Source: Trypanosoma brucei | Taxonomy: Eukaryota | Assembly (NCBI GenBank): GCA_000002445.1 | Contig: CM000208.1 | Location: 96,001 to 160,000 of the forward strand | Direction of reading: 5' to 3' | Length of the DNA stretch: 64,000 bases | Part shown: positions 14,053 through 35,330 of the stretch, in pieces | Layout: each line of letters starts with the position of its first letter | Numbering within the stretch: the first letter of the stretch is position 1 | Notes under the pieces: generated by a model | Told to the model about the DNA's origin: nothing | What the model saw: the letters and a program-made list of their open reading frames with translations, nothing else | Databases searched by the model: none | Program-made: the position numbers and the translations under genes

Positions 14053-16782
14053 ATGAACGAAAGTATTATTCAAGTGCCACTTTATGTATCCACATCAGCT
14101 TGGCGTAAGGAGGTACAACTGAGAGGCCTCTTGCGCAATCACCCGAGTATAATTGCACACAGTGATATTCTCCCACCTGCTACCACGGCCAAAGTTTTCA
14201 GCACAGCTCAGTTGGCAGCACACCACAGGGAAAATGTATTGGCTATTGGTTTAAATCCATTATCCACTTCAGGCGCTTGCGTTGGGCTCTTAACAATGGA
14301 AAGTGCGGAGGCAAAACTTAGTGGTATGTCAAAGATGCAGTGGTTGAATTTGCCATCAACCGAACCTTTGAGCAGCGTGGAATGGTGTGAGGGATCCCTT
14401 TTGGTTGGAACTAGTCGTGGTCGCATTGTTGTAGCAGATGTTAGTCCACAAACTGTTGAGGATTCTGATGGAGAATTGCAGCGTCGCACTTGCCTCGTAT
14501 GTAGTGAAGAGCAAACTCCTGTTGGAGACATAGTTGTGCCACCAAGCAAACATGCCGTGTCAACTCTTGTTCGGTGTGTGCGCAGTAACGCAGCCGTCTG
14601 TTCCTCAAGTGTGGTGGCGGTATGTGATAGTCGCGCAATGGTGTGGGATGTAAAGGGAGCTACACAACCTGTACATACGTGGGTTCCCAGTGTAGACAGC
14701 AGTAAAAATAGTCCAAATGAGCAGGAGCCTCTTTTGTTTGCACAATGGGTTCCAAACAGTGACTCTGTTGTACTCACTGGAAGCTACAGTGGTAGTCTTG
14801 TATTCACAGACATTCGCACCAAAGAGGGATCCACCTCCAAATTATCCCTTCCGGCCCGTCGAGGATGTATGGCTCGGTGTGCCGACTTTAACACATTGCT
14901 TCCATTTGCTCTTGCTACGGCATCTTCTGACGGTATCATTTCTGTATTTGATTGCCGGTATCCGAGCACTGCCGTCCGAACCATCCCCTCGTTGCACGGC
15001 GATATCATGTCTCTAAAGTATTTGAAGCTTCATTCAGACATTATTGCCACGGGTGGGGTTGACGGATCGGTGGTTTTGTGGAATCTTCGCTCTCTTCCAA
15101 CCTATCGCGTGGGTCGTGCGCAATACAAGTGCCCCGTTTTTGATCTTATTACAACTCCATGGTCTGTGGAGCAACATGTTATTGGTGTTACATGTGGTGG
15201 TGAATTGACTCTCACAGGTCTTGCGCAGGAGGCCATGGCAACGTTAGCCGTGCCAGTCACTGAGCGCCTTTCCAAACCATCTGGTCGTAGACAAGAGGAT
15301 AAAACCGCGGCAAATGAGGCGACAGAACTAATGGAACGTGAAAAATATGGTGTGGGTCTCCTGTATTCCCGTCGGTTACGTGAGGCATATGAAGTGATTG
15401 TCGATTGCGCTACAAAGCGCTTTGCGAGAAAGGAGATTACGATGGCAATGAGGTTAGCGGGTCTCCTGGACGTCAAAATGCTTCCGAAATTTGACTACAG
15501 GGCGAAGGTTGAGAGTTTTGAAGCGGAGGAGAAGTGCAAGCGTGAATTAGGTGTGGCGGCTTTGTCGCAGTCGCAAGTAATTGTAGCTTTTGAAGATGCA
15601 CTTGTCCGTTCGAGTCAGTGGCTCTTTCCATCACTTCTGTCTGAAAATATACGAGATCTTCAGAAGCCCGCCAAGCAAGATGTTACAAAACTGGAGGCGT
15701 TGCAATTGAATTTGCTTTTGCATAACAATATTGCTTCCGGGTGTATTGGAAGCGTCGTTGGTGGATTGCAGTATTTCATTGCTAATGGTGGGAATATTAG
15801 TCTTATAGATGCCAATACGGCATGCAGCATCGCAAAGAAATTGTTGGAAGTGAACGTTGCTGAAGGTCAAAAATTTGTGTCAACGTTGCTTTCGTTGGTG
15901 ATTGAACCTGATGGTACTGCTGTAGCCGATGCGCTTGCGAAACGTTTGCTCATAGTGGTTCAGGAGCCACTTGTTACGGCAGGGATGCCGGTACGCCAAG
16001 CAGGAAGACATGAGGAACTTTTTGTATCTGATTTGCTGAGCGCGAAGAGGGCAGTCGAAGTGCAAATGGAGATTCGAAGTTTAGGGATCGAAAACTACAA
16101 AGGAGTAATTGCTGCGGTGAACAAATATCAAGACCAATGTCTCAGAAATGGTGAGAGCGGCATATTTGGCTGGCTTGCTCAGGAACCGCTGATGCTATTT
16201 TTGAACTGCCTCACTGCAGACTCAAATTATGCTACATTTTTCTGGGCGTGTGTACAACTAATTGAGGCGCTGGCCGCGTGTCCGGGTATGCGAGAGGTTG
16301 AGGCTACACTCTTTGCTACAGTGAACAGCATCCACGTTGCTTCTAATCGCCTCCGAAGCCAACTGCAGGAGTTGGCTTCAAAACCGCGTTTTACCCCAGC
16401 GACAGTGCGAGAGGCGGGGAAAACTATAACAACAGTTCTCGACTTCTCTGTTGTCCTTCTTCGTGTTCAGTTGGAGTGCGAGAATGTTGCTCATGAAAGT
16501 GAAATGAGAACTGTACCACCCGTTATGTGTCGCATATTTGATATTTTGTCGTCAGCCTCATCAGACTTGCTGAAAGTGTGGGAAACAATTCTCGGTGTCT
16601 TGGTGGCGTGTCCCCTTCGCAGTCTTGTGCGAAAATGTTGCCTCACTGGAATGCGTAACTTTGCCCTGAAGGTGGAAGGCCTTCTTTCGCTTTCATCGAA
16701 GAAAGGCGGTGACGAAATGTTAAATGAAATACTCGACACATGTGACGAGTTCTTTGACAGAGTTGCTGAAGATGCTGATTGA
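14053..16782 (+). CDS. WD40-repeat protein (N-terminal beta-propeller plus C-terminal alpha-helical region)
   Basis: The 909-aa ORF starts at an ATG. WD-like repeats read directly include LTGSYSGSLVFTDIR, LATASSDGIISVFDCR and IATGGVDGSVVLWNLRSL. The C-terminal ~450 aa is predominantly helical and Leu/Ala-rich. The overall architecture is protocoatomer-like; a specific family cannot be assigned without a search. Confidence 0.7.
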   Translation: MNESIIQVPLYVSTSAWRKEVQLRGLLRNHPSIIAHSDILPPATTAKVFSTAQLAAHHRENVLAIGLNPLSTSGACVGLLTMESAEAKLSGMSKMQWLNLPSTEPLSSVEWCEGSLLVGTSRGRIVVADVSPQTVEDSDGELQRRTCLVCSEEQTPVGDIVVPPSKHAVSTLVRCVRSNAAVCSSSVVAVCDSRAMVWDVKGATQPVHTWVPSVDSSKNSPNEQEPLLFAQWVPNSDSVVLTGSYSGSLVFTDIRTKEGSTSKLSLPARRGCMARCADFNTLLPFALATASSDGIISVFDCRYPSTAVRTIPSLHGDIMSLKYLKLHSDIIATGGVDGSVVLWNLRSLPTYRVGRAQYKCPVFDLITTPWSVEQHVIGVTCGGELTLTGLAQEAMATLAVPVTERLSKPSGRRQEDKTAANEATELMEREKYGVGLLYSRRLREAYEVIVDCATKRFARKEITMAMRLAGLLDVKMLPKFDYRAKVESFEAEEKCKRELGVAALSQSQVIVAFEDALVRSSQWLFPSLLSENIRDLQKPAKQDVTKLEALQLNLLLHNNIASGCIGSVVGGLQYFIANGGNISLIDANTACSIAKKLLEVNVAEGQKFVSTLLSLVIEPDGTAVADALAKRLLIVVQEPLVTAGMPVRQAGRHEELFVSDLLSAKRAVEVQMEIRSLGIENYKGVIAAVNKYQDQCLRNGESGIFGWLAQEPLMLFLNCLTADSNYATFFWACVQLIEALAACPGMREVEATLFATVNSIHVASNRLRSQLQELASKPRFTPATVREAGKTITTVLDFSVVLLRVQLECENVAHESEMRTVPPVMCRIFDILSSASSDLLKVWETILGVLVACPLRSLVRKCCLTGMRNFALKVEGLLSLSSKKGGDEMLNEILDTCDEFFDRVAEDAD

Positions 16783-17158
16783 GTTCTAAAAGTTCATATT
16801 TGCCCTTCGTAGGTGTTCGGCGTCAAAGGCAGTTCCAATCCCACAGTGAGGGGAATGTTACCGTATTCGATTCCTTGATTCGATTTTTTTTTTTTGTGTG
16901 TGTGTGTGTCAGGGGAGGGGGGCGCTCTCTACGCTGTTCCTCATCCTTTACTGCCACTTTCTCCCCCGCATATTCCTCTTTTTTTTCTTTTTCCTCGTTT
17001 TCTTGGTTGGTGGAAACTGTTTCCTAATGTAAAGACTTACAGTAGCATTTGTAAATATAATTAATTAACGTGCTTTTTTTTGTGTGTGTGTGCGGTCACA
17101 CGCGTTGAGGCGTAAGGTGCATTCAGATTAGGGCGTTACGGACCATTAAACCGTCCAT

Positions 17159-18280
17159 ATGCGGGTAGCATCTTTTAGGGCATCTCTTGCTTCCTTCAGC
17201 TTTCACACCCGGTTTTACGCAGCCGGAAAGCCGGGGGTTCCGAGAGCTGGTTTTAAGGCACACGGGGATATTGGCGATGGCCGCAACGACCAACAGCAGT
17301 TGCAAAGTGCGAATCCATACAAATCACGGGAACACATGAACCACAAATGGTTAATTCTTATGTGCGTCGGCTGTTTAGCGGGGGGTTCAGCAGCGGGTCA
17401 CCTTACGGAGGTTGATGAAACTGCACTGAAACCACCTTTTAAGAAGTCGGATGTGCTTTCAAATATTTCCAAAACATTTGAATTCCGTCCTGACCTGGCA
17501 GCAATGGGTGTTCGTGTTGCGTTTCTTCTTGCTGCGCGCAGAGCAGGACTTACAACTGACTCCTTTGATGAGTCTTGCGCCGTTGCCCGTGGCCTTGAAG
17601 ACATCGCCGGAGTATTTCAGCAGCTTGGGACAATGTATCACATTTCAACTGAAGACGCCGCATCGCTGGTAGCTGTGGCTGCATTAAAGTTCTTAAAGGC
17701 CCCTTCTGAATCTATTGAAAATGCGTGGCGTTGGGGACGAAATGACACCGATGAGGCCCCACCGCGGAGGCGAAGAAATGATGAGAAATTCCCCGTAGAG
17801 GCCTCAGGTGTGCAGAGTTTACTTAAGGGGTTATGTGATCTCACTGATGCTGAGTGCGTAGCGTTGTTAGCATGCCACAGTGTTGGTGAATTTCACGAAC
17901 ACGTGAGTGGCTTGGACGGTGCCACACATATCGGGAGCCGTTACAAGCTAAGTAATGAGTATTATAAGTTTTTGTTGTCAAATGAGAAGCGTTTCTTCGA
18001 TCTTGAAGTTCCTAGGACGGAGGAAAATAAAGAAATACGTCGCCTACCGAAGAACTTTGTATGTGTTTATGCCAGCACTGGCAAGAGAGGAAAAAAAAAA
18101 CAGTGCGTTTTCAATAGGAGCGAGGTGGATGCCATTTTGAAGAATAGTACGTGGCGGAAACTTGCCGAGTACTACGCGGAGAACGAAGCGGCATGGGCCG
18201 AGGCATTCCAGTCGGGTTTCACAAAAATGATTGACAGTAATTTCAAGAGGTTGCGCCCATACGACGCATCAACAGATTAG
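17159..18280 (+). CDS. class I heme peroxidase-like protein (APX/CcP family) with degenerate distal site; probable true start at 17336
   Basis: The proximal-side region LLACHSVGEFHEHVSGLDGATHIGSRYKLSNEYYKFLLSNE resembles the ascorbate-peroxidase pattern ALSGAHTLG...ERSGFEGPWT...DNSYFKELLSGE. The distal motif RLAWH is replaced by RVAFL, so the distal His and Trp are absent. The in-frame Met at 17336 begins a signal/anchor-like segment (MNHKWLILMCVGCLAGGSAAG). The upstream 59 codons (ATG at 17159) look non-protein-like. Confidence 0.6.
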   Translation: MRVASFRASLASFSFHTRFYAAGKPGVPRAGFKAHGDIGDGRNDQQQLQSANPYKSREHMNHKWLILMCVGCLAGGSAAGHLTEVDETALKPPFKKSDVLSNISKTFEFRPDLAAMGVRVAFLLAARRAGLTTDSFDESCAVARGLEDIAGVFQQLGTMYHISTEDAASLVAVAALKFLKAPSESIENAWRWGRNDTDEAPPRRRRNDEKFPVEASGVQSLLKGLCDLTDAECVALLACHSVGEFHEHVSGLDGATHIGSRYKLSNEYYKFLLSNEKRFFDLEVPRTEENKEIRRLPKNFVCVYASTGKRGKKKQCVFNRSEVDAILKNSTWRKLAEYYAENEAAWAEAFQSGFTKMIDSNFKRLRPYDASTD

Positions 18281-18591
18281 TCTAGGATGCGTAGTCTTTA
18301 CTAATATTTTTTTGTTTTGTCTTTCACGGATCGAATAATTACACAACTCAGTTTCTCCACACTTGGTTTCCACGAAATTTCCTCATCCAGGGATTCCTCC
18401 ACGTGTGTTTGTGTTCGCACGGTATTATTATTATTATTAATGCTAATTGTTTGGCTTTGTCTCTCCCCCTTGTGACACTTCACCCGTCCATATTCTCGAC
18501 TACCGTTGTATTTTTTCGTTCTGCTTTTTTTTTTGTTGTTTATGCCAATTCCTTACTTTTTTTTAAAAAAAAACTCTTTAGAAAATTAGTC

Positions 18592-18996
18592 ATGTCCAAC
18601 CGAGGCTTTACCCCGCGTGCCATTATTCCACCAGCGGCACCTTCAAGCAGAGATAAGAGACCTGCAGGAGCACCATATGGAAAGAATTTAAACAACGCAA
18701 AGGCGACGGTGCCTGCACAGCAGCGGGTTCAGGGTTTAAAACAGAACCAACCGGCAAATAGTCATCCCCTTCCATGCGAGTCTTGCAGGGAACTTATGAA
18801 GTGCACACAAGACGCCCGACAGGCGTTAGAAAAAGTTTTACAAAATGCTCGAATGATATTTCTGGATGACACGCTGCACCATCAAATGGATGATGAGCGT
18901 TGGTTGCGGGTTCTACGAGCACTTGGTGGAAATAAGAGGGAATACTTTACGAGAATTCCTTCAAATTGCTTAACTGCTACGGATGCAACTCTTTGA
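18592..18996 (+). CDS. hypothetical small basic protein
   Basis: The ORF-track start at 18403 is GTG and its first 63 codons translate a polypyrimidine tract. The first ATG is at 18592 (MSNRGFTPRAIIPPAAP...), giving 134 aa on the + strand. No domain was recognised. Confidence 0.4.
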   Translation: MSNRGFTPRAIIPPAAPSSRDKRPAGAPYGKNLNNAKATVPAQQRVQGLKQNQPANSHPLPCESCRELMKCTQDARQALEKVLQNARMIFLDDTLHHQMDDERWLRVLRALGGNKREYFTRIPSNCLTATDATL

Positions 18997-19803: not shown

Positions 19804-21729
19804 ATGCCCGAGGCGTATATTGAGGAAACACAAAGTAAACTGGGGGCTGTTATTAGTTCCCCAAAGTTATCTGAGAAACTCCTTTTGAAACCTCCTTTCC
19901 GTTTTTTGCATGACATTGTCACCAGTTTTATTAAAGCAACTGGGTTCCCTGATGGTTTATATCCCGAAGATATGCTTGACAGTGCAAATGTATCCGATAA
20001 AGAAAAGAAGATACAATTCCTTAGTCTCCTTATTGCGGCCGTTGAGTCGGCAACGGGTTCAAAGGTGTCAGCCAATCCTTCTAAAATTGTCGCGGGACAT
20101 GAACCTGAGCAAACAAACGAATTACTTCAGTTACTTGCTTCTTGCGCTGCACTTCCGTCGGATAAAAAGGCAGCGGCCGTAAAGGCAGCAAAAAGTGCGG
20201 GAGACGCTACGAAATCATCAAGCAGCAAAGGCGGGGACGACGACGAGAAGCGCAAGCGACGCGAAGAAGAAAAGAAGAAACGAAAGGAAGAGGAAGGTGA
20301 TGGTGAAAAGAAGAAACATAAGGAAGAAGACGGCGAGAAAAAGAAGCACAAGGAGGAAGACGGCGAAAAGAAAAAACATAGGGAAGAGGATGGAGAAAGG
20401 AAGAAGCATAAAGAAGAGGACAGTGAGAAGAAGAAACGCAAGGAAGGAGAAGGGGAAGAAAAGAAGAAACATAAGGAAGAAGATGGTGAGAAAAAGAAAC
20501 GAAAAGAGGAGGAGGGAGACGGTGAAAAGAAAAAGCATAGAGACGAAGATGGAGAAAAGAAAAAGCATCGGGAGGATGATGGAGAAAGAAAGAAGCGAAA
20601 GGAAGAGGAAGGTGATGGTGAAAAGAAGAAACACAAGGAAGAAGATGGCGAGAAGAAGAAACGAAAAGAGGAGGAGGGAGACGAGAAGAAAAAACATAGG
20701 GAAGACGAAAGTGAGAGAAAGAAACGAAAGGAGGAAGATGGAGAGAAAAAGAAACGAAAAGAGGAAGAAGGAGAGAAAAAGAAACGGAAGGAGGAGGATG
20801 GTGATGGTGAAAAGAAGAAACGTAGGGACGAGGATGATGAGGAACGCCGTAGGAGACATGAAGAGAGGAAGCGACAAGAAAAGAAAGCTGCTGAGCAGGC
20901 GCAAGGTAGTGCCGGAGCTGAGCCATCTGAAGGTAAGGGTGCGGATGGTACTACAGAAGGTGCTACTGGCCAACAGCAATTACCAACACGTCAGCTTATC
21001 CGCAAATCGTCTGCGGGGAAAGCGCCACCACGTTCGAAGGCTTCGCACGAAGTTGTTGCTGATGATGGTAGTTCTGCAAATGTTGCTGAAGTGATCCGTG
21101 AGACGAAGCGTGGTGCTGCCGGGGAGGGTTCTAAAGAAGATGGAGAGGAAAATGATTGGATGCGTGTCGCTGAGCAACAGGCCGCACGACCAACGAAAGA
21201 CAGTGACGGCACTTTACAAGATGGTGAGGCAAAGGGATATCTCGGCCAGCAGGCTTTGCGAGCGAAGCGGGAGCAAGAAGAAGAGACCGCGCGTCTGGCG
21301 CAGGATGGTGGTGCACGAGGTCCTCGAGAGGGCGGTATTATTATTCACAGCAACAGGGCTGGTAAGAGCGGTGGCACCATGGCGGAGGGCGAACTCAGCA
21401 AACTTCGGCAACAACTTCAACTGTTGACGAAAGCTTCTAATCCTCTTGGAAAACTTTTGGAGTCGATTCACGATGACATCGACACAATGGGGCGGGAATT
21501 GGAAATGTGGAGATCGGAGGCACGCAGCCAGGCGCTTGCTGCTGCTGATGCACGCCGGCAAACAACAGAAAGTCTTCAGGAGGTACACGCCCAACTGCAG
21601 GCTCTAGAAGACGCTATAAGTGATCAAATATTGAAAAACCATAACATACGGCGCAATATCATCAGTAACGACAATGCCATTGCTGGAATGGTCCGCATGT
21701 TTGTTAATCCCGATGCCCTTACCCGTTAG
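19804..21729 (+). CDS. IFT54: intraflagellar transport protein IFT54 (MIP-T3/TRAF3IP1/DYF-11 family)
   Basis: The N-terminal domain ...LLLKPPFRFLHDIVTSFIKATGFPDGLY...KKIQFLSLLIAAV...PSKIVAGHEPEQTNELLQLLASCA matches the conserved MIP-T3 N-terminal (CH-like) domain (KPPFRYLHDI..., IVAGHEPERTNELLQ). The middle of the protein is a long Lys/Glu-rich low-complexity region, and the C-terminus is a coiled-coil (LRQQLQLLTKA...LQEVHAQLQALEDAI). This is the canonical IFT54 architecture. Confidence 0.85.
   Translation: MPEAYIEETQSKLGAVISSPKLSEKLLLKPPFRFLHDIVTSFIKATGFPDGLYPEDMLDSANVSDKEKKIQFLSLLIAAVESATGSKVSANPSKIVAGHEPEQTNELLQLLASCAALPSDKKAAAVKAAKSAGDATKSSSSKGGDDDEKRKRREEEKKKRKEEEGDGEKKKHKEEDGEKKKHKEEDGEKKKHREEDGERKKHKEEDSEKKKRKEGEGEEKKKHKEEDGEKKKRKEEEGDGEKKKHRDEDGEKKKHREDDGERKKRKEEEGDGEKKKHKEEDGEKKKRKEEEGDEKKKHREDESERKKRKEEDGEKKKRKEEEGEKKKRKEEDGDGEKKKRRDEDDEERRRRHEERKRQEKKAAEQAQGSAGAEPSEGKGADGTTEGATGQQQLPTRQLIRKSSAGKAPPRSKASHEVVADDGSSANVAEVIRETKRGAAGEGSKEDGEENDWMRVAEQQAARPTKDSDGTLQDGEAKGYLGQQALRAKREQEEETARLAQDGGARGPREGGIIIHSNRAGKSGGTMAEGELSKLRQQLQLLTKASNPLGKLLESIHDDIDTMGRELEMWRSEARSQALAAADARRQTTESLQEVHAQLQALEDAISDQILKNHNIRRNIISNDNAIAGMVRMFVNPDALTR
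20221..20896 (+). repeat. in-frame tandem decapeptide-coding repeat (about 20 copies of KKKHKEEDGE, 30-nt period) within IFT54
   Basis: Degenerate repeats ...GEKKKHKEEDGEKKKHKEEDGEKKKHREEDGERKKHKEEDSEKKKRKEGEGEEKKK... are visible in both the nucleotide sequence (gaaaagaagaaacataaggaagaagacggcgag...) and the translation. The repeat generates mirrored antisense ORFs at 20127..20979, which are artefacts. Confidence 0.9.
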
Positions 21730-22671
21730 AATAGATGTTTTTTCGCGCTTTTCCCTAATATTAACCGTCGGCGTTTTCGACTGAAAAGTTACCTAGGTGG
21801 AGAATAGCACTGTGTGGATGCCATGCCGTGGAAGGGACTGCTTCTTGCGAGTGCGCTTGTATATGCGTTGGTCCCATGTCTCCAGCAGTTGCGTTATACC
21901 TTACATGTGGAGTAGATTACTCACTGTTACACACGCCAAAACGCGTGGCATACTTCTTGTTCTTTTTTTCTTTCATTTGTGTTGGTTGCTTGCATACCGT
22001 GGGCCGGTTGTGGGTAATGACAAGAGGTTTGGTTGCTTTCTCATATGCGATTGTACGCGAATCAGTATATACATATATATTTATATATATCTACATATGT
22101 GTGATTTGAATTATCATATTCACTTTATTTTCTGTTTGTACACACCAGTGCTGTTGGGATATTATAATGGGTAGAGTTACATTCGAGACTTTTAATCCAC
22201 GCTCTTCGCTCCACCCTAACAAGCAAACACACAAACATACATACACAAAAAGGAAACAGAAAGGGGCATACGTACTGGTTATTCAAGGGCTCCATTAGGC
22301 TTGTAGGTATTTTACTACACTGGTGTCACGGATTTACGCCTCCTGTTAACTGGTGTGAGTGAAGAGGTTGGGGTCTCACCAAAGGAGAGGAAGGGTTTTG
22401 TATTCGTTAGGACGGTGGAATATTACAGTCGGAAATTAGAGGAAGGAACTACTGCCCACACGGGCATCGTAGCGTATACATCCCCTCCATATTTTCGTCC
22501 CCCGGTTTCTTTTAGTGAGTCCATTTACGGATTGTAGCACAAGGCGGGGTTATTGAGGGTTTATTATTTTTGGTTTATTCATTCACTCATTCACTCACTT
22601 ACTAGTGTATATATAAATAAATATACATACGTACGCACTTACATTTCGCATCTCACACTTAGTGTCAGTGA

Positions 22672-24966
22672 ATGGAGAATTACACCCAACTTCGTGTGTT
22701 GGGGAAAGGTAGCTTTGGCTCCGCATGGTTAGTGCAACGTCGAAGCGACCGCGTGAAGTTTGTAGCTAAAGAGGTGAGATTAGCCGGTTTACGGCCTGCC
22801 GAACGGGACAGTGCCAAACGCGAGATTGACCTTCTTCGTACTCTTCACCATCCAAATATTACGCGATATGTGGACCATTTTGAACACCGTGGTGCGTTGT
22901 ATATTGTAATGGAGTATGCAGACGGTGGGGATCTGTATTCAGCAATTAGAAATCGCAGAGGCACGCGTTTCTCTGAAAAAGAGATTTTACACTATTTTTC
23001 ACAGCTGTGTTTGGCTATGCTGCATTTGCATGAAAAGCACATTTTGCACCGTGACCTGAAAACGCAAAACGTTTTTCTGACGAGTGATGGGGTTGTTAAA
23101 TTGGGTGACTTTGGTATTAGTACCGTGTTACGCAACACATTCGAACTGAAGCGGACAGTGTGCGGAACTCCGTATTATTTTTCGCCGGAGCTGTGCCTTA
23201 ATAAACCGTACAACAATAAGAGTGATGTATGGGCCCTTGGCTGCATTTTATATGAACTGACGACCCTGACGCATGCTTTCGACGGAAACAATATGAAGGC
23301 CCTCGTACAGAAAATTCTAAAGGGTAGCTACCCGCCTATCCATAGTAGTTATTCGACTAGTTTGTCTAAGCTCATATCGTCAATGCTTCAGATTGATCCC
23401 CAACGGCGTCCAAGTGTTAGCGAAATTATTTCATCTCCATACATACGTGAGTCACTCTCATTACTGCAACGAGTGGTCAAAGATGCCCACAATAATAAAG
23501 GGCCATGCCAACTAGCAGGTGACAAGGAGCGGGCAGCAGCTGGATTTAAACAGCAGGAAAAGGCCCAGGAGGCCCCCATGCGGGCTGAAGAACGCCGTAA
23601 AGAAGAACACGCAAAGGCAATGCATGCTGCAAAGGAGCGATTACAACTCCGCATGCAAGGTGAAGCTCGAAATCGTGAAAATGAAGAGAAGTTGCGGCAA
23701 CTGAAGCTGGACCAACGCCAAGCGGAAGTGGAGCAGAAGATAAGAAAACAAGAATTGGAAGCCCGTGTGCGGGAGCAGCGAAAACTACTTGAAAAGCGAG
23801 CCAAAGCGCACGCACTGTTGGAGAAACAAAGGGAAGAGGAATGGGAGCGCAACATGAGGGAGCATGCAGAGGAAGTTAGGCGAGGCCAAGGAGAGGAGGG
23901 TTGTGCACGTGACAACAGAGAAACAAACGCTCCTAACGATAGACCGTGTAATCGATACGGTGATGGTGGACGGCGGTCTCCATTGAAAGTCCCACCTTCT
24001 CCAACAGCAGCAGCAGAGTTGTACCGTGAGATGCGCCGCCAGGCAGCCCTGAATAAGCAGCGCTTTATGGAAGAGATGAAAGTAGAGCAACCACCTCCTG
24101 CCGTTAGCGGGCAACCCAACGGGAATGGGAAATTACCACCGAATAGGGGAGGGAACGCGTTGGGTAACCCTCTGGGGAATGGCCAGCAGCCGCAACCGAT
24201 ATCACCACTAGACGATATGGAAGCACGCCGCAAGGCTTATTGGGATATGCGGCGGGAGGCAGAAGAGAACAGGCGACGAGCACTGGCTTTAGAGGCAGGT
24301 CCAAGCGCTGTGCAGGTGGAACAACCCGAAGCGGCACCCCCTAAGGAATCGGCAATGCCACACATAGTGAAAAAGCCTGCACCACAGCAACGGCCGCAAG
24401 CCAATGATAACAAACCAAAGGATGTTTGCCCTTTGCTCTATGCAAAGCGCACCGCCAACAATGAGGGCCCGCCGTCGCCACAACTGGAGCCGAACACTCC
24501 CGCCAATAGGGTTGGAGTCTACCCTGAAGTTAGTCGCGCAGATTCTCCAGATAGTGGGACGGAGGTGAAGAGAGACGAGGATTATAACGCACTCCAGACT
24601 CTTATAGACAGGGCGCTGACAAAGAAGGGCGATCGTGAGAGTGATGAAGACTTCAATGATGAAGCGTTCGTGGACTCTGATATATCACGTTTTGTGCTGG
24701 ATGGACGGACACTCGTGCTTCCGAAAGTGCAAGCCACAGATCCATTGATGCACCGTATCGAGTCTCTTCGCCTTTTCCTTGAGGGCGAACTTGGCGAGTC
24801 CAAACTCTTGGGAGCTTACCGGCAGATGAATGATATTAGTGCGGACGACGACGAAGCAATGCAGCGTGTTCGGGATGAACTTCCAGAAGCCCACCATAAA
24901 TACATCCCAATCATTGCCCAACTGATTGTGTGCGAAGATGCATTTAATCGTCAAATGCTGCGGTAG
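22672..24966 (+). CDS. NEK-family (NIMA-related) serine/threonine protein kinase with C-terminal coiled-coil/charged region
   Basis: The N-terminal kinase domain carries LGKGSFGSAWLV, VAKEV, HRDLKTQNVFL, DFGIS and the NEK-typical GTPYYFSPELC. It is followed by an Arg/Glu/Lys-rich coiled-coil (EERRKEEHAKAMHAAKERLQLRMQGEARNRENEEKLRQLKLDQRQAEVEQKIRKQELEARVREQRKLLEKRAK). Confidence 0.9.
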   Translation: MENYTQLRVLGKGSFGSAWLVQRRSDRVKFVAKEVRLAGLRPAERDSAKREIDLLRTLHHPNITRYVDHFEHRGALYIVMEYADGGDLYSAIRNRRGTRFSEKEILHYFSQLCLAMLHLHEKHILHRDLKTQNVFLTSDGVVKLGDFGISTVLRNTFELKRTVCGTPYYFSPELCLNKPYNNKSDVWALGCILYELTTLTHAFDGNNMKALVQKILKGSYPPIHSSYSTSLSKLISSMLQIDPQRRPSVSEIISSPYIRESLSLLQRVVKDAHNNKGPCQLAGDKERAAAGFKQQEKAQEAPMRAEERRKEEHAKAMHAAKERLQLRMQGEARNRENEEKLRQLKLDQRQAEVEQKIRKQELEARVREQRKLLEKRAKAHALLEKQREEEWERNMREHAEEVRRGQGEEGCARDNRETNAPNDRPCNRYGDGGRRSPLKVPPSPTAAAELYREMRRQAALNKQRFMEEMKVEQPPPAVSGQPNGNGKLPPNRGGNALGNPLGNGQQPQPISPLDDMEARRKAYWDMRREAEENRRRALALEAGPSAVQVEQPEAAPPKESAMPHIVKKPAPQQRPQANDNKPKDVCPLLYAKRTANNEGPPSPQLEPNTPANRVGVYPEVSRADSPDSGTEVKRDEDYNALQTLIDRALTKKGDRESDEDFNDEAFVDSDISRFVLDGRTLVLPKVQATDPLMHRIESLRLFLEGELGESKLLGAYRQMNDISADDDEAMQRVRDELPEAHHKYIPIIAQLIVCEDAFNRQMLR

Positions 24967-26437: not shown

Positions 26438-28015
26438 ATGCGGTGCAACAAAGCATTACATCGGTATGATGCTGTTGTGGTGGGTGGGGGTCTTGCGGGG
26501 TGCCTTGTCGCCGGCCGTCTTGCGATGGACAACCGGCGGATTGCCGTTATTGAAGAGGGTGAAGATATTCGGCGACAGCCCCGGTGGCATCGTAACTTGG
26601 CATGTAGCCTCCTGTCGCATAGATGCGGGGGCCGTGGTTACGAGAGCCATACCAACGTTACAACTCCTCAGCTTTCGCATGAAAAGGAAAATGCCCCTGC
26701 ACCCGTCATGATTCCAACACCGAAAGTGCTTGGCGGTGGCGGAGTCATGGGAGGCCGGTCATGGCTTATTGGTGATGAGGCGGATTGGACTGCAACTCCA
26801 TGGGACTTCCGTGGTGATCTTTTACCTCGTGTGCAACGCTTGGAAAATGTGGAAGGCGCAGGCCCACACCGCGGTCGTCGGGGGAGGTTTACCGTTGGTC
26901 GCTCGCACGCCCAATCTCCACTTTTTAGGGTATTTTGCGAAGCAATGTCAAAAGACACGTCAATAACAAGTGATTTCAACAAGAAGGCGTTTGCTGTGCG
27001 GACGGGTTGCGGGCGTACTGAGTCTTTTGTAGACCCAAATACAGGTGTGGCGCATACCACACTGCAGAGTTACTTGATGGACGCCATCGAACTTAGGCGA
27101 CCGCTAGACGTGATATGCAACGCGAGAGTCTTTGGTATCAGCAGCGGTAAGGACGACCCGGCTATTGCAACTGGTGTCTCCTACACCCAAAAGGGTGAAA
27201 CGGTGCATGTTGAAGCAGATGATGTTATTCTTTGCGCTGGAGGGATCGGTACACCATTACTCTTAGCTGCATCCCGCGGTCCACTTCCCATCGACCAGTC
27301 GGTTGGCACAAATTTTTGGGATGCACCGCAGGTGAAGCTCCAATTTCGTACCCCATCGTCGCTCAGTCACAATTGCTTCATGGACCCGTTGGTGCAGGCA
27401 TTTTTGTGGCCCAATGTAACGTACGGCACCCCTATTAGTTCCCTGCGTTCTGCATATGACGACATGATTTGTTTCTGGTCGAGCACAGGAGGACAAACCC
27501 CTGATGTAAAATTCATTTTTCAGCCGTTCACGCTCAACAATGACGGCTCACAACCGAAAAATGTGACTCATGGAGTGCAGATTATTGCTCAGCTGCTGAA
27601 GCCCAAAAGTCGCGGGTCCATATGCGCTGATGGCACCATTAACCCGCAGTATTTTTCCCATACGGATGATGCAGCAGTTCTCAGCAAAGCCGTGGCGCGA
27701 GTGAAGGAGCTGTCGAAGGTATTGCCTTTTTCTAACCTTTTTTCTGAACTTATTGCTGAGCATTTTGAGTCAGCAGGCGTCTACGGCGGGGCAACGTACC
27801 CGGCGGTCGCACCTGAGACATTTCTCGTGAAAGGTACGCGAAACGTGTATGCATGTGACGAAAGTATTTTGCCCTCCCCATTGTTAGGTGGATCTCTGCC
27901 TTTTATATTGGCTTTAGGGGAAAAATTTAGTGATCATTATTTGCAGAAACTGGAGACTACCGGTAAAGCAGCTGCATCGGAAGGTATCGATGCGAAGGCG
28001 CGTATAATTTATTGA
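26438..28015 (+). CDS. GMC-family FAD oxidoreductase (choline dehydrogenase-like)
   Basis: The N-terminal FAD-binding Rossmann motif is YDAVVVGGGLAGCLVAGRLAMD. The 525-aa length and internal GMC-like segments (GGGGVMGGRSWLIGDEADW; ...ILCAGGIGTPLLL...) fit glucose-methanol-choline oxidoreductases. Confidence 0.8.
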   Translation: MRCNKALHRYDAVVVGGGLAGCLVAGRLAMDNRRIAVIEEGEDIRRQPRWHRNLACSLLSHRCGGRGYESHTNVTTPQLSHEKENAPAPVMIPTPKVLGGGGVMGGRSWLIGDEADWTATPWDFRGDLLPRVQRLENVEGAGPHRGRRGRFTVGRSHAQSPLFRVFCEAMSKDTSITSDFNKKAFAVRTGCGRTESFVDPNTGVAHTTLQSYLMDAIELRRPLDVICNARVFGISSGKDDPAIATGVSYTQKGETVHVEADDVILCAGGIGTPLLLAASRGPLPIDQSVGTNFWDAPQVKLQFRTPSSLSHNCFMDPLVQAFLWPNVTYGTPISSLRSAYDDMICFWSSTGGQTPDVKFIFQPFTLNNDGSQPKNVTHGVQIIAQLLKPKSRGSICADGTINPQYFSHTDDAAVLSKAVARVKELSKVLPFSNLFSELIAEHFESAGVYGGATYPAVAPETFLVKGTRNVYACDESILPSPLLGGSLPFILALGEKFSDHYLQKLETTGKAAASEGIDAKARIIY

Positions 28016-30802: not shown

Positions 30803-33800
30803 CATTTGTTTTTGTGAAAGTGGCGTGCATGCGGATGAAAAAATGAAGCGCAAAGCAGTAAAAAGAAAAACAAAAAATAAAATAAAATAAGAAACAAAAA
30901 GGAAGAAAGGAAACCTTCTCCTTCACATTCCTTCCCTCTCCCCCGTTGACCAGCCTGGTCAGAAAAAAAAAAAGGAAAGATCATGAAGATGTGCAAATAT
31001 GCCGGTTTGGGGTTTCGTTAGAAATCAGATTGAAAAGTGAGTTATCCCCTTTTTATTTTTTATTTTATGCATTTTTATCCGTTGATTTGTACTTTATTTA
31101 TTGCCCACATGAGTTAGCGGTTGTGATTTAGAAGGAGAAATGTCTTCTCCCTTTCTCTTTTCTTCTGGTTTTATCATATTTATTTTTTTTTCTCTCTCTC
31201 TTTTACTACCGTTATTGTATTTGTCTTTCTTTTTTTTTATTTTTTATCTGGTTACGCGTCGAAAGGAGTGTGGTCCAAGCGCTGGGAACATTTGCTCAGG
31301 TGCGCGTCTGCCTCCATATGGGGCCCTTTAAGAAACTAATGAGAAAAAAAAAGGAAAAAAAAATGAAACAAATGTTTTATTGCAGCAAAGGAAACAGTCG
31401 CTGCTTTTCTCTTTTTTTGTTTCCCTTTGATCCCATCAGAGTGCATCCTGTAAAGTTTCTCTTTTTTTTTCCCCCTTTTCCACGTGCATTTGTATATATT
31501 TTCTATCGGGTTTTATTTTTTTTTTGTGTGTTTGTTTTTTTCTTCCGTTGTGTGACAGCATCCGTATATATAAATATATATATTATTTATTTTCCTTTTT
31601 ACGTATTTTATTTAATTACAACCTCGAGAAATCATCATTACCACACGTGCGCAGTCGTAACTGCCTCTTTTTTTTTCTTTTTCTTTTTAACATTTCTTCA
31701 CTCAAATATGTACTTTTGTTTCCATGTGAGTGAATGAATGTGCGACATTCCGTGACAATTCTTCCGTCACCCATAGTAATCCTCATCGTATCTCTGATTT
31801 ATTTTCATTAATGTTATTCGCATTATTTTTTTCTTCATTTTTTATTATTATTTTTAAATTTAATCTTTCCTTCCTTATATTTATTACTGTTACCTTCCAC
31901 TTTTACAGTTATTTTATTTTTCTTTGTTTGGGGTAATTTAATTTAATTTAATTCGTGTCGTCGTCGTTGTTGTTGTTTTGTTATTATTTTCCTTTTATTG
32001 AAAGAAAAGGGGATTGAAAAAAAAAAGAAAAAAAGAAAAAAAGTGGAAATGAGAGTTGCGTTAACTGACGCAACTCCGTCGCTATGTTTTAATGAGTGAC
32101 ACGCGTGTCTTTTTTTTTAAAAAAAAAACCTCTCTTTCTTTCTTTTACTATTTTATTATTTTATTTCTCTCTTAAACACACGTACAAATTGCAAAAGCAA
32201 ATACACCAAAGAAAAACACATTTCATCATTCTCATTATTATTATTATTGTTGTTGGTGGTGGTGCTGTTTTTTTTTCCCCCCTCCTCCTCTTCCTTCTTC
32301 TGATTTATGTTATCGGCAATCTTATGTTTGCTCTCTGATGCATTTATGTTTTTCCTTTCTTTCTTTCTTATTTATTTATTTCTACTCCCTAACATCACTC
32401 ATGTCTTCGATATTTTACTACCTTTTTATGAGCTATTTATTTATGTTTGTGTTTATGTTTATGTGTGTGCCGGCAGCGACTTCCTGTCCTTATTATTCTT
32501 CATTATTATTTGTATTTATTTTCTGTTTGATCCGTTTTTTCCCCCCCTTTTACTCTGCCTTGTTATGTCATGTCTGTCCTTCTTTTTCTTTTTTTTTTTG
32601 GTTTTTACTGTTTTTTTTTTTACTTTTTGTATATCTTCATGGTAATTTATTTCCCCCTTTTGTTTTTTTCTTTCTATTATATATACGCAATGTGTAACAA
32701 ATATCCCTTTAAATATAATATCACTGTGTATGTGTGTGTGTCGCGCACCATTTGGCTCATAAATGTCATGTACCTCATTTCCCTTTCTTTCTTTCTGTTT
32801 AATTCATTCCTTCCTTTTATTCATTTATTTACTTATTTACTTAATCTGCTTTTTATTTTATAAAAAAAATATATATATATATATATATCCATCCATCCAT
32901 TCATCCATATATATATTAATATATTAATATATTTAATTATATTTATTTATATAAAAGAGTGCTGATATCAAATCGTTTCGAATTTTAACTCGTGTTTGCT
33001 TCGGGTTTTTTTTTACCCCTCCTCCTCTGCTGAATTGACAGGCGATTATCCAATGGAGATGGTTGATATTATTGTTATTATTAGTTTAACATATGCGTGT
33101 GTTATTTTTTATTCTAACGCAAAAGTGATGAAGAAAAAATAAAAAGAGATTATCTGCAACGTTTTATAAAAATAAAATAAAATAATTACTGTTGTTATTG
33201 TTGTTGTTGTTGTTGCTACTGCTATTATTATTATTATTTTTAAAAATATTATGAATATTTATTTCCTTTCTTTGATGTGTGATCGCATCTACTCCTCATT
33301 TTTCTCGAGTACATGTACCGAAAATGCCATAAATTCCGCTATTTTTTTTTTTTGCGTTTGTGTGGTGACAGAATTGTGAAGAAATTATTCAAAAAAAAAT
33401 AATAATTAAAAATGAACGAAAAAAAAAAGACGAAATAAAATAAATAATTATATATATATAAACAAATATTGATAAATTCAAGACGGTTATCTGACATGAG
33501 TGTTGTACAAAAAAAAAAAGAAGCAAAGAGTCGAGAAATTATAAAAGTGGTGGAAAAGTGCCTGAGAAAGAGTGACGGAGGGAGAAAATATGTTAAAATA
33601 TATAAATATATGTATTGTATTTTGTTTTTTTTTCTACCTCCCATTCCTTCTATGTTTTTCTATAGATTTATAAATAAATTAATAAAAATATACGCAAGAA
33701 AGCGTGTCTGAGTTTACATGTGGTCACTGCATCAATTTCATTACGAGAAGGACCGGCAAGTGACGAACCGCAATGTATAATAAATATATATATTTTTTTC

Positions 33801-35330
33801 TTTTTTTTTTTTTAGCATATTTATATTTATATCTATCGGCATGTTCATATTCGTTTCTTTTTTTTTTTAATTTGGTAGAATTCTTTTTGTTTAACTCTTT
33901 GGCATTCCATTTCCCATTCGTCCTCTTTTGCACGCAAACGTGTGGCTGAGTGGTGGAATCTGCCGGTAATGAAGAAATAAAACAATAAATGACAATTAAA
34001 AAAGAAGAAAAGAGAAACAATAATGATAAAACAAACTCACATTTCTTTTTTTTTTTTAAAGAAAAAGGTGCGAAATTATTAACGTAATGAATTAAACAGG
34101 TGACTATTTGACAGAAAGATGTGAATAACTACAGAAATTTGAGAGAAAGAGAAAAGAAACGAAAAAAAAAAGGACAAAAAAAAGAAGGAATAAATCAACA
34201 AAGTAATATGAAAAAAAAATGTGATTCACGTATGTATTAATGTATGAAACACATTTATGTCTCAATGGATTTTGCTGCTTTTTCTCATTATATTTATGTT
34301 TGTCTCTCGATGTATTTATTTCTTTATTTATTTTTTAAATATGTGAAAGGAATTTATTTGTGACGCGTCAGGAACTCCTCGCGCCTGTTATCATTTCACG
34401 TAATGGAGAATAAATAAATAAATATTTATATTTACGCGCTCGTTTTGTTGAATTCTTATCCTTCATCATATCCATTGTACCATTTTTATATTTATAATTC
34501 ATCTATTCAATTTTATTCTGTTTCTTGTTTTACCTATTTATTTTTCATCTGTACACGAATTAACAGATTGCGTTTAGCAGTTATCAATTCAGTTCCAAAA
34601 AAAAAAAAGAGAGAAGGCATATTCTTTCTGTGTATGAGTTCACAAAAAAAAAAGAAAATGTTATTAAATGTATTCACGTGTCGTTTTGCTTTCTTTTTTT
34701 TTTGTTTCCCCTTCACTCTGCTCAGACACTCTACAAGGAGAAAAAAGATGTTTTCTTGTTGTTGTTATTATTATTATTATTTCGTTCATGTTGTTTTGTT
34801 CTATTCTGTTTTTTTTCCTTTTCCTTTTGCTACCCGGTGCGAAAACGGTATCTTCTTTAATATGGTGAAGTGAGCGAGTAATAGCTATTTTTAAAAAAAA
34901 TAATCAAACGATAAAAGTTAAAAATGAAAAAGGAAATGATGACGATGACGATGGCGATGGAGAATAAAATAGGGAGAAATGTACGATTGACTCCCACTTA
35001 TTTCATTCCATTCTTCCCTCTGTTTATTGTTTCTTAAATATGTGTTCTTATTCTCATTTTTGTTTCGGTCATTTCTTAATACATTACTGCCTGCTCTTCT
35101 TTTTCTCTTTTTTTTTATTTCAACACGTTGCGTATCAAATAGTAATACACAACAGGTGACGAGGAGCTTCCTTCCCCTCCTTCCCTTTTTTCTCCTTTTA
35201 AAAGATAAAAAGAAAACATTAATCACAAACATATCTGTACGTTTGGGAGGAATAACGACGGAGGGAAGGTACACATATTTTCATTGAAAGAATCAAAAAT
35301 AAAAAATCTTTTAAAAAAATATTACATCAC
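30803..35330 (+). other. ~4.5 kb gene-free, extremely T-rich low-complexity region (probable long UTR or intergenic)
   Basis: No ORF with protein-like composition is present; all ORF-track entries there are F/L/S-rich translations of T-runs. The + strand carries many T-runs, (ATT)n/(GTT)n tracts and (AT)n. Small islands of normal-complexity sequence at about 32040-32110, 33700-33760 and 34360-34420 contain short palindromes. Confidence 0.7.

What the first reader, a model, noticed from the sequence alone, without database searches (positions are those of the whole stretch)
17159..18280. Heme peroxidase-like protein with the distal catalytic His/Trp replaced (candidate pseudoperoxidase) and an N-terminal signal-anchor
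The proximal-His region and downstream class I peroxidase motifs are well conserved (CHSVGEFHEHVSGLDGATH..., NEYYKFLLSNE). The distal RLAWH motif reads RVAFL, removing the His and Trp needed for compound I formation. The likely start at 17336 gives a hydrophobic signal/anchor. Such a protein might bind heme without classical peroxidase activity, for example as a sensor or peroxynitrite scavenger. This is notable in a lineage that is a heme auxotroph.
Basis: partly seen in the sequence, partly recalled or inferred. Interest (0 to 1): 0.55.

Follow-up and report, generated by a model that had tools for sequence, protein, structure and literature searches.

The report
Trypanosoma brucei orthologue of Leishmania pseudoperoxidase
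This gene is the Trypanosoma brucei copy (Tb927.10.430) of a known haem protein, the Leishmania "pseudoperoxidase", which has a peroxidase shape but lacks the peroxidase catalytic residues; it is a mitochondrial protein and an ordinary, uncharacterised member of a known family.

Summary
The 373-aa ORF at 17159-18280 (+) has a class I haem-peroxidase fold. The proximal His is kept (H240) and the distal R-L-A-W-H reads R-V-A-F-L (R119/F122/L123). It is not a new kind of protein. It is identical to T. brucei TREU927 Q38CJ5 (Tb927.10.430) and is the syntenic orthologue of Leishmania major pseudoperoxidase (PDB 5VIA; E 1.7e-99, about 55% identity, TM 0.91). The proposed start at 17336 is very probably wrong. 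Residues 1-59 are conserved in orthologues and look like a mitochondrial presequence followed by a stop-transfer helix. Published proteomics place the protein in the procyclic mitochondrion, and its level falls when ATOM40 is knocked down. The most likely function is a non-peroxidatic haem protein anchored in the inner membrane, facing the intermembrane space, that handles peroxynitrite or NO-derived oxidants. A redox or haem-sensing role is not excluded, because the family also occurs in insect-only trypanosomatids and environmental samples. Novelty: new member of a known kind. Interest is low to moderate.

The parts
16957..17034 (+). Polypyrimidine tracts (16957-16967, 16973-16996) and the first downstream AG (17033-17034): putative spliced-leader acceptor for this gene's mRNA (inferred)
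   Evidence: Pattern scan. The only ATG between the tract and 17159 (at 17027) lies upstream of the AG, so 17159 would be the first AUG of the mRNA. No transcript data were examined.
17159..18280 (+). Complete coding sequence (373 aa plus stop) of the T. brucei pseudoperoxidase orthologue Tb927.10.430 / Q38CJ5
   Evidence: ORF. The protein is identical to P0185 (T. b. brucei TREU927 XP_822303.1). The gene ID comes from the Peikert 2017 supplement.
17159..17248 (+). N-terminal presequence-like segment (aa 1-30; MRVASFRASLASFSFHTRFYAAGKP...)
   Evidence: The first 25 aa have 4 K+R, 0 D+E and 5 S+T. Named orthologues have 2-5 K+R and no acidic residue. The protein is scored TargetP-positive in the Peikert 2017 reference set. 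AF2 pLDDT is below 50, i.e. disordered.
17252..17347 (+).
   Evidence: F32, N52, P53 and H62 are nearly invariant in 27 family members. Conservation at the protein level argues that translation starts at 17159.
17336..17338 (+).
   Evidence: plus the published mitochondrial data.
17348..17407 (+). Single transmembrane / stop-transfer helix (aa 64-83, WLILMCVGCLAGGSAAGHLT) with a nearly invariant C-x-G-C
   Evidence: Best 19-residue Kyte-Doolittle window is 65-83, mean 1.57. AF2 predicts a helix at 57-82. The 15-residue flanks have net charge +2 (N side) and -1 (C side). C69, G71 and C72 are nearly invariant. The 5VIA crystallisation construct begins just after this helix.
17408..18265 (+). Class I peroxidase-fold haem domain (aa 84-369)
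   Evidence: phmmer aligns query 83-369 with 5VIA 3-289, E 1.7e-99. Foldseek of the AF2 model gives 5VIA TMt 0.91, rmsd 2.7, and LmP / T. cruzi APX / CcP TMt 0.6-0.75. hhalign against class I gives probability 99.9%.
17513..17527 (+). Distal-helix motif R119-V-A-F122-L123 in place of R-L-A-W-H (distal Arg kept; Trp to Phe; His to Leu)
   Evidence: MAFFT and hhalign agree. L123 aligns with LmPP Val90.
17576..17578 (+). Cys140 codon: predicted distal axial haem ligand (matches LmPP Cys107)
   Evidence: Invariant in all 27 aligned family members. It matches 5VIA index 60 = LmPP C107 with the offset of 47. The local AF2 pLDDT is below 50 at 139-141, as expected for a loop that is ordered by haem.
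17876..17878 (+). His240 codon: proximal axial haem ligand (matches CcP His175, LmPP His206)
   Evidence: Invariant in the family and in class I peroxidases. The HMMER alignment to LmP 'GAHTCGECH' agrees.
18122..18124 (+). Glu322 codon: invariant acidic residue, probable counterpart of the proximal Asp (CcP Asp235)
   Evidence: MAFFT places E322 under CcP D235, directly after the beta-hairpin, and it is invariant. hhalign instead puts N299 there, so the assignment is provisional.

Best explanation
The ORF encodes the Trypanosoma brucei orthologue (Tb927.10.430) of Leishmania major pseudoperoxidase (LmPP). It is translated from the ATG at 17159. A positively charged, acid-free N-terminal presequence takes it into the mitochondrion through the ATOM40 translocase. 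A moderately hydrophobic Gly/Ala/Cys-rich helix (aa 64-83) stops transfer in the inner membrane. This leaves a short conserved tail on the matrix side and the peroxidase-fold domain of about 290 residues in the intermembrane space, as for Leishmania peroxidase and yeast CcP. The topology is inferred. The domain binds one b-type haem through His240 on the proximal side and Cys140 on the distal side. With the sixth coordination site occupied, and the distal His, distal Trp and proximal radical Trp all absent, it cannot make compound I from H2O2 and is not an ascorbate or cytochrome c peroxidase. By analogy with LmPP, its most likely chemistry is reaction of the ferric Cys/His haem with peroxynitrite or other NO-derived oxidants, that is, protection of the mitochondrion against nitrosative stress. 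Shown here: identity, orthology, fold, residue replacements and conserved N-terminal architecture. Taken from published proteomics: mitochondrial location and protein expression. Inferred: haem ligation in the T. brucei protein, membrane orientation and substrate.
For: - Identity: the protein is 100% identical to T. b. brucei TREU927 XP_822303.1 / Q38CJ5, which is Tb927.10.430.
- Orthology to LmPP: 5VIA is the top PDB hit, E 1.7e-99 over 287 aa, and 3.9e-151 with the family profile. The Leishmania martiniquensis orthologue is 84% identical to 5VIA. It sits in the same gene order as the window: WD40, this gene, a small ORF, MIP-T3, a kinase, a GMC oxidoreductase.
- Fold: AF2 pLDDT 76.5; Foldseek TMt 0.91 to 5VIA and about 0.7 to LmP, T. 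cruzi APX and CcP.
- Residues: R119/F122/L123 replace R/W/H. H240 matches the proximal His. C140 and H240 are invariant in 27 members. No alternative His or Trp lies in the distal region. The LmPP literature numbering (Val90, Cys107, His206; recalled from memory) maps onto V, C and H of the 5VIA sequence with one offset of 47.
- Start and targeting: residues 32-63 are conserved. The first 25 aa have 4 K+R and 0 D+E. Splice signals lie upstream of 17159.
- Published proteomics (Peikert et al. 2017, PMC5436138): the protein is in the mitochondrial reference set (mitochondrial proteome studies; TargetP-positive). In procyclic cells it was seen with 18 peptides and 43% coverage. It fell to 0.68-fold (p 0.0075) and 0.66-fold (p 0.019) on ATOM40 RNAi.
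- LmPP function: it decomposes peroxynitrite and favours infection, as summarised in PMC12398798 and PMC12285341.
Against: - No biochemical data exist for the T. brucei protein, and haem binding itself is inferred.
- The ATOM40 effect (log2 -0.55 to -0.60) is just short of the -0.62 importome threshold, which was set on another dataset. MitoFates did not predict a presequence.
- The family is present in insect-only trypanosomatids (Leptomonas, Angomonas, Strigomonas, Novymonas), in environmental metagenome contigs and in a ciliate transcriptome. The protein is abundant in the insect (procyclic) stage. Defence against host macrophage peroxynitrite therefore cannot be the ancestral or only role.
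- T. brucei is extracellular.
- Within T. brucei the few differences are mostly non-synonymous (6 against 2). The TREU927 allele has R57, where W is nearly invariant in the family. This is compatible with relaxed constraint.
- Intermembrane-space orientation rests only on flanking charge and on analogy.
Confidence: 0.72

Rival explanations
1. It is a haem-based sensor or haem-handling protein rather than a detoxifying enzyme. The redox-labile Cys/His ligation would let the intermembrane-space domain report or buffer haem, NO/CO or redox state. The signal would pass through the membrane anchor and the conserved matrix-side tail, or the protein would hand haem to mitochondrial cytochromes in an organism that must import all its haem.
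For: - C140 and H240 are invariant across the whole family, including insect-only trypanosomatids and members from environmental samples.
- The juxtamembrane tail and the C-x-G-C in the helix are conserved, which is not needed for a simple scavenger.
- The protein is readily detected in procyclic forms, which do not meet macrophages.
- The summary of LmPP in PMC12398798 describes only 'moderate rates' of peroxynitrite decomposition.
- From general knowledge: Cys/His haems are typical of sensors (CBS, Rev-erb, HRI and others), and yeast CcP has been reported to act as an H2O2 sensor and haem donor.
Against: - There is no direct evidence for a partner or a signalling output, and no output domain.
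- The only experimental phenotype in the family (the LmPP knockout, recalled from the cited Bose 2012 work) concerns peroxynitrite sensitivity and virulence.
- The conserved tail may simply be part of a bipartite sorting or cleavage signal.
Confidence: 0.2
2. It is a decaying remnant of the ascorbate/cytochrome c peroxidase that T. brucei lost: an expressed but functionless pseudo-enzyme drifting neutrally.
For: - T. brucei lacks APX activity (PMC7237987), and a review states that haem peroxidases are absent from T. brucei (PMC10955670).
- Within T. brucei, 6 of 8 nucleotide differences are non-synonymous. P is about 0.04 if omega were 0.2.
- TREU927 carries R57 and N342 at positions that are nearly invariant in the family.
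- The Pfam score is only at threshold.
Against: - The catalytic-residue replacements are not T. brucei-specific. They are shared with every family member, including species that also keep a true APX-CcP, so this is an old paralogue and not a recent decay product.
- There are 48 invariant and 39 nearly invariant columns across 27 sequences and no frameshifts or stops.
- Synteny is conserved.
- The protein is detected with 18 peptides.
Confidence: 0.05
3. One reading: translation starts at 17336, giving a type II signal-anchor protein of the secretory pathway or cell surface.
For: - The ATG at 17336 is in frame and is immediately followed by the hydrophobic helix.
- The related T. cruzi APX-CcP is described in PMC12398798 only as having a 'distinct subcellular localization'. 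From my own recollection it is found at more than one location, including the ER and plasma membrane; this was not checked here.
Against: - Residues 32-59 are conserved at protein level across genera, and every Trypanosoma orthologue has an upstream Met followed by a presequence-like stretch.
- No good polypyrimidine/AG signal lies between 17159 and 17336.
- Mitochondrial proteomics and the drop on ATOM40 knockdown argue against it.
- The theoretical mass listed in the proteomics tables, 41.6 kDa, is that of the 373-aa gene model. It shows which model was used and does not test the start.
Confidence: 0.03

Closest known systems
Leishmania major pseudoperoxidase, LmPP (PDB 5VIA)
   Same: Positional orthologue: same gene neighbourhood in Leishmania. 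About 55% identity over the whole haem domain. Same fold, TM 0.91. Same distal Arg and Phe, same Cys (C107 = C140) and His (H206 = H240), same invariant Glu. The same juxtamembrane motif and helix occur in full-length Leishmaniinae gene models.
   Different: The distal-His position is Leu in T. brucei (Leu or Ile in other Trypanosoma) and Val in Leishmaniinae. The 'APPNVGPGR' part of the tail has degenerated in T. brucei and T. congolense. The host organism is extracellular. No biochemical, structural or genetic data exist for the T. brucei protein.
Kinetoplastid APX-CcP hybrid peroxidases (L. major peroxidase 3RIV; T. cruzi APX-CcP 7OQR)
   Same: Class I peroxidase fold (TMt about 0.72-0.76), proximal His, and N-terminal targeting region plus membrane anchor. 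The Leishmania enzyme is in the mitochondrial intermembrane space (general knowledge).
   Different: Only about 20% identity. These enzymes keep R-L-A-W-H, the proximal Trp and the Asp, and are true peroxidases. T. brucei has no such gene or activity (PMC7237987).
Yeast cytochrome c peroxidase (Ccp1)
   Same: Same fold. A bipartite N-terminal signal (presequence plus hydrophobic sorting segment) delivers the haem domain to the intermembrane space (general knowledge).
   Different: CcP has His52, Trp51, Trp191 and Asp235 and a five-coordinate haem. In the window protein these positions are Leu123, Phe122, no Trp, and Glu322 (or Asn299), and Cys140 is predicted to fill the sixth site.
Prokinetoplastid 'cytochrome c peroxidase' homologues (Apiculatamorpha spiralis P0048, Papus ankaliazontas P0049)
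   Same: They share the FxFRP[DE]LA...R distal-helix signature without a distal His, the N-terminal NP...H motif and the anchor.
   Different: They keep the proximal Trp (NWT/KWT) and a shorter C-terminal half. Papus lacks the Cys. They score only E 1e-39 to 1e-40 against the family profile.

Membership tests
LmPP-type pseudoperoxidase | Class I peroxidase fold closest to 5VIA | tested here: met
   Sequence E 1.7e-99. Foldseek TMt 0.91, rmsd 2.7 Å, 54% identity.
LmPP-type pseudoperoxidase | Distal His replaced by an aliphatic residue (LmPP Val90) and distal Trp by Phe, with the distal Arg kept | tested here: met
   R119/F122/L123 in MAFFT and hhalign. No His at 82-160 and no Trp at 65-189.
LmPP-type pseudoperoxidase | Conserved Cys that supplies the distal axial ligand (LmPP Cys107) | tested here: met
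   C140 aligns with 5VIA C60 (= C107) and is invariant in 27 sequences. That it actually ligates haem in T. brucei is inferred.
LmPP-type pseudoperoxidase | Proximal His ligand (LmPP His206) | tested here: met
   H240 is invariant.
LmPP-type pseudoperoxidase | Positional orthology (conserved gene neighbourhood with the Leishmania gene) | tested here: met
   The same six-gene order is seen in the window and in L. martiniquensis locus L002. The L. martiniquensis protein is 84% identical to 5VIA.
LmPP-type pseudoperoxidase | Six-coordinate low-spin ferric haem, negligible H2O2 peroxidase activity, reaction with peroxynitrite | not testable with these tools
   This needs recombinant protein, spectroscopy and stopped-flow kinetics.
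Catalytic class I haem peroxidase (APX / CcP; Pfam PF00141) | Distal catalytic His (CcP His52 / APX His42) | tested here: not met
   Leu123 occupies this position.
Catalytic class I haem peroxidase (APX / CcP; Pfam PF00141) | Distal Trp (Trp51/41) and proximal Trp (Trp191/179) | tested here: not met
   Phe122 replaces the distal Trp. At the proximal site 'GPW' is replaced by G254-A255-T256-H257, and the residue under the Trp is T256 or H257 depending on the alignment.
Catalytic class I haem peroxidase (APX / CcP; Pfam PF00141) | Proximal His-Asp pair | tested here: inconclusive
   The His is present. The Asp position is E322 (invariant) in MAFFT but N299 in hhalign.
Catalytic class I haem peroxidase (APX / CcP; Pfam PF00141) | Pfam gathering score | tested here: inconclusive
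   27.0 bits against a cut-off of 27, covering only profile positions 57-211 of 237.
Mitochondrial proteins with a bipartite (presequence plus stop-transfer) signal | Basic, acid-free N-terminus followed by a moderately hydrophobic sorting helix | tested here: met
   Composition and hydropathy in the window protein and 11 other family members. TargetP-positive but MitoFates-negative in Peikert 2017.
Mitochondrial proteins with a bipartite (presequence plus stop-transfer) signal | Experimentally mitochondrial and dependent on the import pore | tested here: met
   [quoted passage not shown] No new experiment was done.
Mitochondrial proteins with a bipartite (presequence plus stop-transfer) signal | Haem domain exposed to the intermembrane space | not testable with these tools
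   Only flank charges (+2 and -1) and analogy are available.

The most novel reading that the evidence does not exclude
The pseudoperoxidase may be an ancient mitochondrial inner-membrane protein found throughout the kinetoplastids. Its Cys/His haem domain in the intermembrane space would work as a haem, redox or NO sensor, or as a haem-transfer station for a haem-auxotrophic mitochondrion, coupled through a conserved C-x-G-C helix to a conserved matrix-side tail. The peroxynitrite 'detoxification' reported for Leishmania would then be a side reaction. The published LmPP work would also have used a gene model lacking the N-terminal targeting region of about 67 residues.
Probability: 0.2. Interest if true: 0.6.

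Novelty: new member of a known kind. Interest (0 to 1): 0.3.

Why it matters
T. brucei is usually described as lacking haem peroxidases (PMC10955670; no APX activity, PMC7237987). This gene shows that it keeps, and expresses in its mitochondrion, the one non-catalytic member of that superfamily. No paper in the searchable library mentions Tb927.10.430 in its main text. The practical value is modest. It allows a correct annotation ('pseudoperoxidase, mitochondrial' instead of 'hypothetical protein' or 'peroxidase'). It also provides a genetically tractable organism, with no true APX-CcP in the background, in which to ask what a Cys/His peroxidase-fold haem protein does. The family's presence in insect-only trypanosomatids and environmental samples argues that its core role is not defence against macrophages.

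Tried and rejected
- **LmPP primary papers.** I tried to read Chreifi 2017 by PubMed id and DOI and searched by title and PDB code. None is held. Details of LmPP spectroscopy, ligand numbering and knockout phenotype therefore rest on my memory plus the short summaries. The recalled numbering was checked for self-consistency against the 5VIA sequence.
- **Exact look-up of the window protein** in the contig index returned nothing, although the identical TREU927 protein is a cluster member.
- **Gene ID through the neighbouring IFT54 gene** failed. The ID was obtained through the UniProt accession in the Peikert 2017 supplements.
- **Other papers.** Pyrih 2023 (sub-mitochondrial map) is not held. 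The diplonemid mitoproteome supplement gave no link. The Urbaniak 2012 stage-proteome supplement does not contain the gene in the stored text, so stage regulation was not established.
- **Alternative distal His after gap adjustment:** rejected, because no His or Trp exists in the relevant stretch.
- **Pseudogene reading:** rejected on family-wide conservation and protein detection.
- **Bacterial-style features** (promoters, terminators, repeats, RNA families) were not pursued, because the window is a trypanosomatid polycistronic unit.
Full report
**What is in the sequence**

The window is a trypanosomatid-type polycistronic unit. Almost all long ORFs are on the + strand, and GC is about 0.28-0.50. 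The ORF at 17159-18280 (+) encodes 373 aa. An in-frame ATG at 17336 (M60) precedes a hydrophobic stretch. Pfam PF00141 (peroxidase) matches only at its threshold, 27.0 bits against a cut-off of 27. This probably explains why the gene is annotated 'hypothetical protein'.

**Identity**

A sequence search of the PDB gives one outstanding hit: 5VIA, 'Pseudoperoxidase' of Leishmania major, at E 1.7e-99 over residues 83-369. T. cruzi APX and yeast CcP follow at about 1e-5. The homology search found 37 relatives:
- 98% identity to an unnamed Logan contig;
- 73% to T. congolense;
- 64-66% to T. grayi, T. theileri, T. vivax and T. cruzi;
- 54-57% to Leishmaniinae and Angomonas;
- 39-48% to unnamed environmental or transcriptome sequences.

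The 98% cluster contains T. b. gambiense, T. equiperdum ('peroxidase, putative') and T. b. brucei TREU927 XP_822303.1 / UniProt Q38CJ5 ('hypothetical protein, conserved'). The TREU927 sequence is identical to the window protein. The supplements of Peikert et al. 2017 (PMC5436138) tie Q38CJ5 to Tb927.10.430 / Tb10.70.7900. No paper in the searchable library mentions this gene ID in its main text.

**Orthology with LmPP**

In Leishmania martiniquensis the homologue is 84% identical to 5VIA. It lies in the order WD40 protein, peroxidase-like gene, 145-aa ORF, MIP-T3 (IFT54), protein kinase, GMC oxidoreductase. The window has the same six genes in the same order and orientation: 14053-16782, 17159-18280, 18589-18996, 19804-21729, 22672-24966 and 26438-28015. 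The window gene is therefore the positional orthologue of LmPP.

**Fold and haem pocket**

An AlphaFold2 model built on a 27-sequence alignment has mean pLDDT 76.5. The first 52 residues are disordered, a long helix spans 57-82, and the rest is a mainly helical domain. Foldseek places it on 5VIA (TMt 0.91, rmsd 2.7 Å) and then on Leishmania peroxidase, T. cruzi peroxidase, CcP and APX (TMt 0.6-0.75).

MAFFT with bridging sequences and an independent profile-profile alignment (hhalign, probability 99.9%, E 4.9e-31) agree on these points:
- CcP Arg48, Trp51 and His52 correspond to R119, F122 and L123.
- CcP His175 corresponds to H240.
- The 'GPW' that carries Trp191 is replaced by G-A-T-H, so there is no Trp.

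No His lies between residues 82 and 160 and no Trp between 65 and 189.

The counterpart of the proximal Asp235 is ambiguous. MAFFT gives the invariant E322, which follows the beta-hairpin as Asp235 does in CcP. hhalign gives the variable N299.

Cys140, in the motif D-E-S-C-A-V, is invariant in all 27 aligned family members, as is H240. From my recollection of the LmPP literature (Saha et al. 2013, cited; the 5VIA structure paper), LmPP is a six-coordinate low-spin haem protein. Its axial ligands are His206 and Cys107, and Val90 sits at the distal-His position. I could not read those papers. However, the three recalled numbers map onto V, C and H of the 5VIA sequence with a single offset of 47, which supports the recollection. 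In the window protein these positions are L123, C140 and H240. The AF2 model has very low confidence exactly at 139-141, as expected for a loop that is ordered by a ligand the predictor does not see.

**Start codon and targeting**

1. Residues upstream of M60 are conserved at protein level across genera, with F32, N52, P53 and H62 nearly invariant. The consensus is F-x-A-P-P-N-V-G-P-G-R...A-N-P-Y-K-S-W-E-H-x-N-H-K-W.
2. All named orthologues begin with a basic, acid-free stretch: 2-5 K+R and 0 D+E in the first 25 residues, and 4 and 0 in the window protein. A 19-residue segment of moderate hydrophobicity follows (Kyte-Doolittle 1.5-2.1). In the window protein the 15-residue N-side flank has net charge +2 and the C-side flank -1. 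In the other family members the C-side flank is usually the more negative of the two.
3. The longest polypyrimidine tracts (16957-16996) and the first AG after them (17033) lie upstream of 17159. The only other nearby ATG (17027) is upstream of that AG.
4. Peikert et al. 2017 list Tb927.10.430 in their mitochondrial reference set. It appears in earlier mitochondrial proteomes, has a 'mitochondri' annotation in TriTrypDB, and is TargetP-positive but MitoFates-negative. They detected it in procyclic cells with 18 peptides and 43% coverage. It fell to 0.68-fold (p 0.0075) in organelle fractions and to 0.66-fold (p 0.019) in whole cells after ATOM40 knockdown. This is slightly short of the -0.62 log2 importome threshold, which was defined on a different dataset.

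The architecture is that of a bipartite mitochondrial signal, as in yeast CcP and Leishmania peroxidase (general knowledge). I infer an inner-membrane anchor with the haem domain in the intermembrane space. That orientation was not tested.

**Mechanism**

The sixth coordination site is occupied by Cys. The acid-base His, the distal Trp and the proximal radical Trp are all missing. The protein should therefore not form compound I with H2O2, and it is not an APX or CcP. [quoted passage not shown] I take the same chemistry as the most likely activity of the T. brucei protein.

The distribution argues that anti-macrophage defence cannot be the ancestral role:
- The family is present in insect-only trypanosomatids.
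- It is present in contigs from environmental metagenomes and in a ciliate transcriptome.
- More distant His-less relatives occur in free-living prokinetoplastids.
- The T. brucei protein is well expressed in the insect stage.

A sensor or haem-handling role is therefore kept as the main rival.

**Is it decaying in T. brucei?**

Comparison with a 98%-identical contig shows 8 nucleotide differences, of which 6 are non-synonymous. The TREU927 allele has R57, where W is nearly invariant in the family, and H16 instead of Y. N342 replaces a nearly invariant D, and this change is shared with T. equiperdum. If omega were 0.2, six or more non-synonymous changes out of 8 would have P of about 0.04. This hints at relaxed constraint, but it rests on eight sites. 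The catalytic-residue replacements are family-wide and old, the ORF is intact and the protein is detected, so a pseudogene reading is rejected.

**Comparison with what is known, and novelty**

The gene meets every sequence-level defining feature of the LmPP family and fails the defining features of catalytic class I peroxidases (see the membership table). It is a new, uncharacterised member of a known kind. It qualifies the statement that haem peroxidases are absent from T. brucei (PMC10955670). T. brucei lacks APX activity (PMC7237987) but retains the pseudoperoxidase.

**Verdict**

Interest is low to moderate (0.3). The most novel reading still open is an ancient mitochondrial Cys/His haem sensor or haem-transfer protein, whose Leishmania orthologue may have been studied from an N-terminally truncated gene model. 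I give it about 0.2 probability.

Noticed in passing
window 17363-17374 (C69-V-G-C72 within the helix, aa 64-83): The membrane helix carries a nearly invariant C-x-G-C plus several conserved Gly/Ala residues across the family. This could be a metal, haem or disulphide site, a dimerisation surface, or a rhomboid/IMP-type cleavage region.
   Followed up: partly
window 17204-17206 (H16), 17327-17329 (R57), 18182-18184 (N342): The TREU927 allele differs from the other T. brucei-group alleles at H16 (others Y) and R57 (others W). W57 and D342 are nearly invariant in the family. Compared with a 98%-identical contig, 6 of 8 differences are non-synonymous.
   Followed up: partly
L002:10001-10201 (L. 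martiniquensis) and proteins P0011, P0019, P0020: Leishmaniinae gene models carry a conserved N-terminal extension of about 67 aa (MLRxSCxAWGxG...) upstream of 'MF[KR]APP'. The recalled LmPP residue numbering (5VIA index + 47) implies that published LmPP work used the shorter model starting at MFKAPP, so LmPP targeting may deserve another look.
   Followed up: partly
window 18589-18996 (+): A small ORF (135 aa from its ATG) immediately downstream is conserved and syntenic with a 145-aa Leishmania gene: 49% identity over 41 aa, E 2e-13. It has no Pfam match.
   Followed up: partly
proteins P0054 (2198 aa), P0057 (2731 aa), P0059 (2298 aa): The family profile also hits giant proteins of unknown origin with 4-6 peroxidase-like stretches each.
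   Followed up: no
proteins P0048 (Apiculatamorpha spiralis), P0049 (Papus ankaliazontas): Free-living prokinetoplastids have 'cytochrome c peroxidase' homologues that already lack the distal His (…IRMCFIY…, …LRLTFLY…) but keep the proximal Trp. The Cys is present in one of them only. They may be an intermediate grade between CcP and the pseudoperoxidase.
   Followed up: partly
window 32001-34000 and 42001-44000; 20001-22000: Two strongly AT-rich stretches (GC 0.28 and 0.32) lie between genes. A stretch with unusually high GC skew (0.28) and AT skew (0.34) lies inside the MIP-T3/IFT54 gene.
   Followed up: no
window 16884-16910 and 17073-17095: The intergenic region upstream of the gene contains T-runs followed by (GT)n microsatellites. 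These are typical trypanosomatid intergenic sequence.
   Followed up: no
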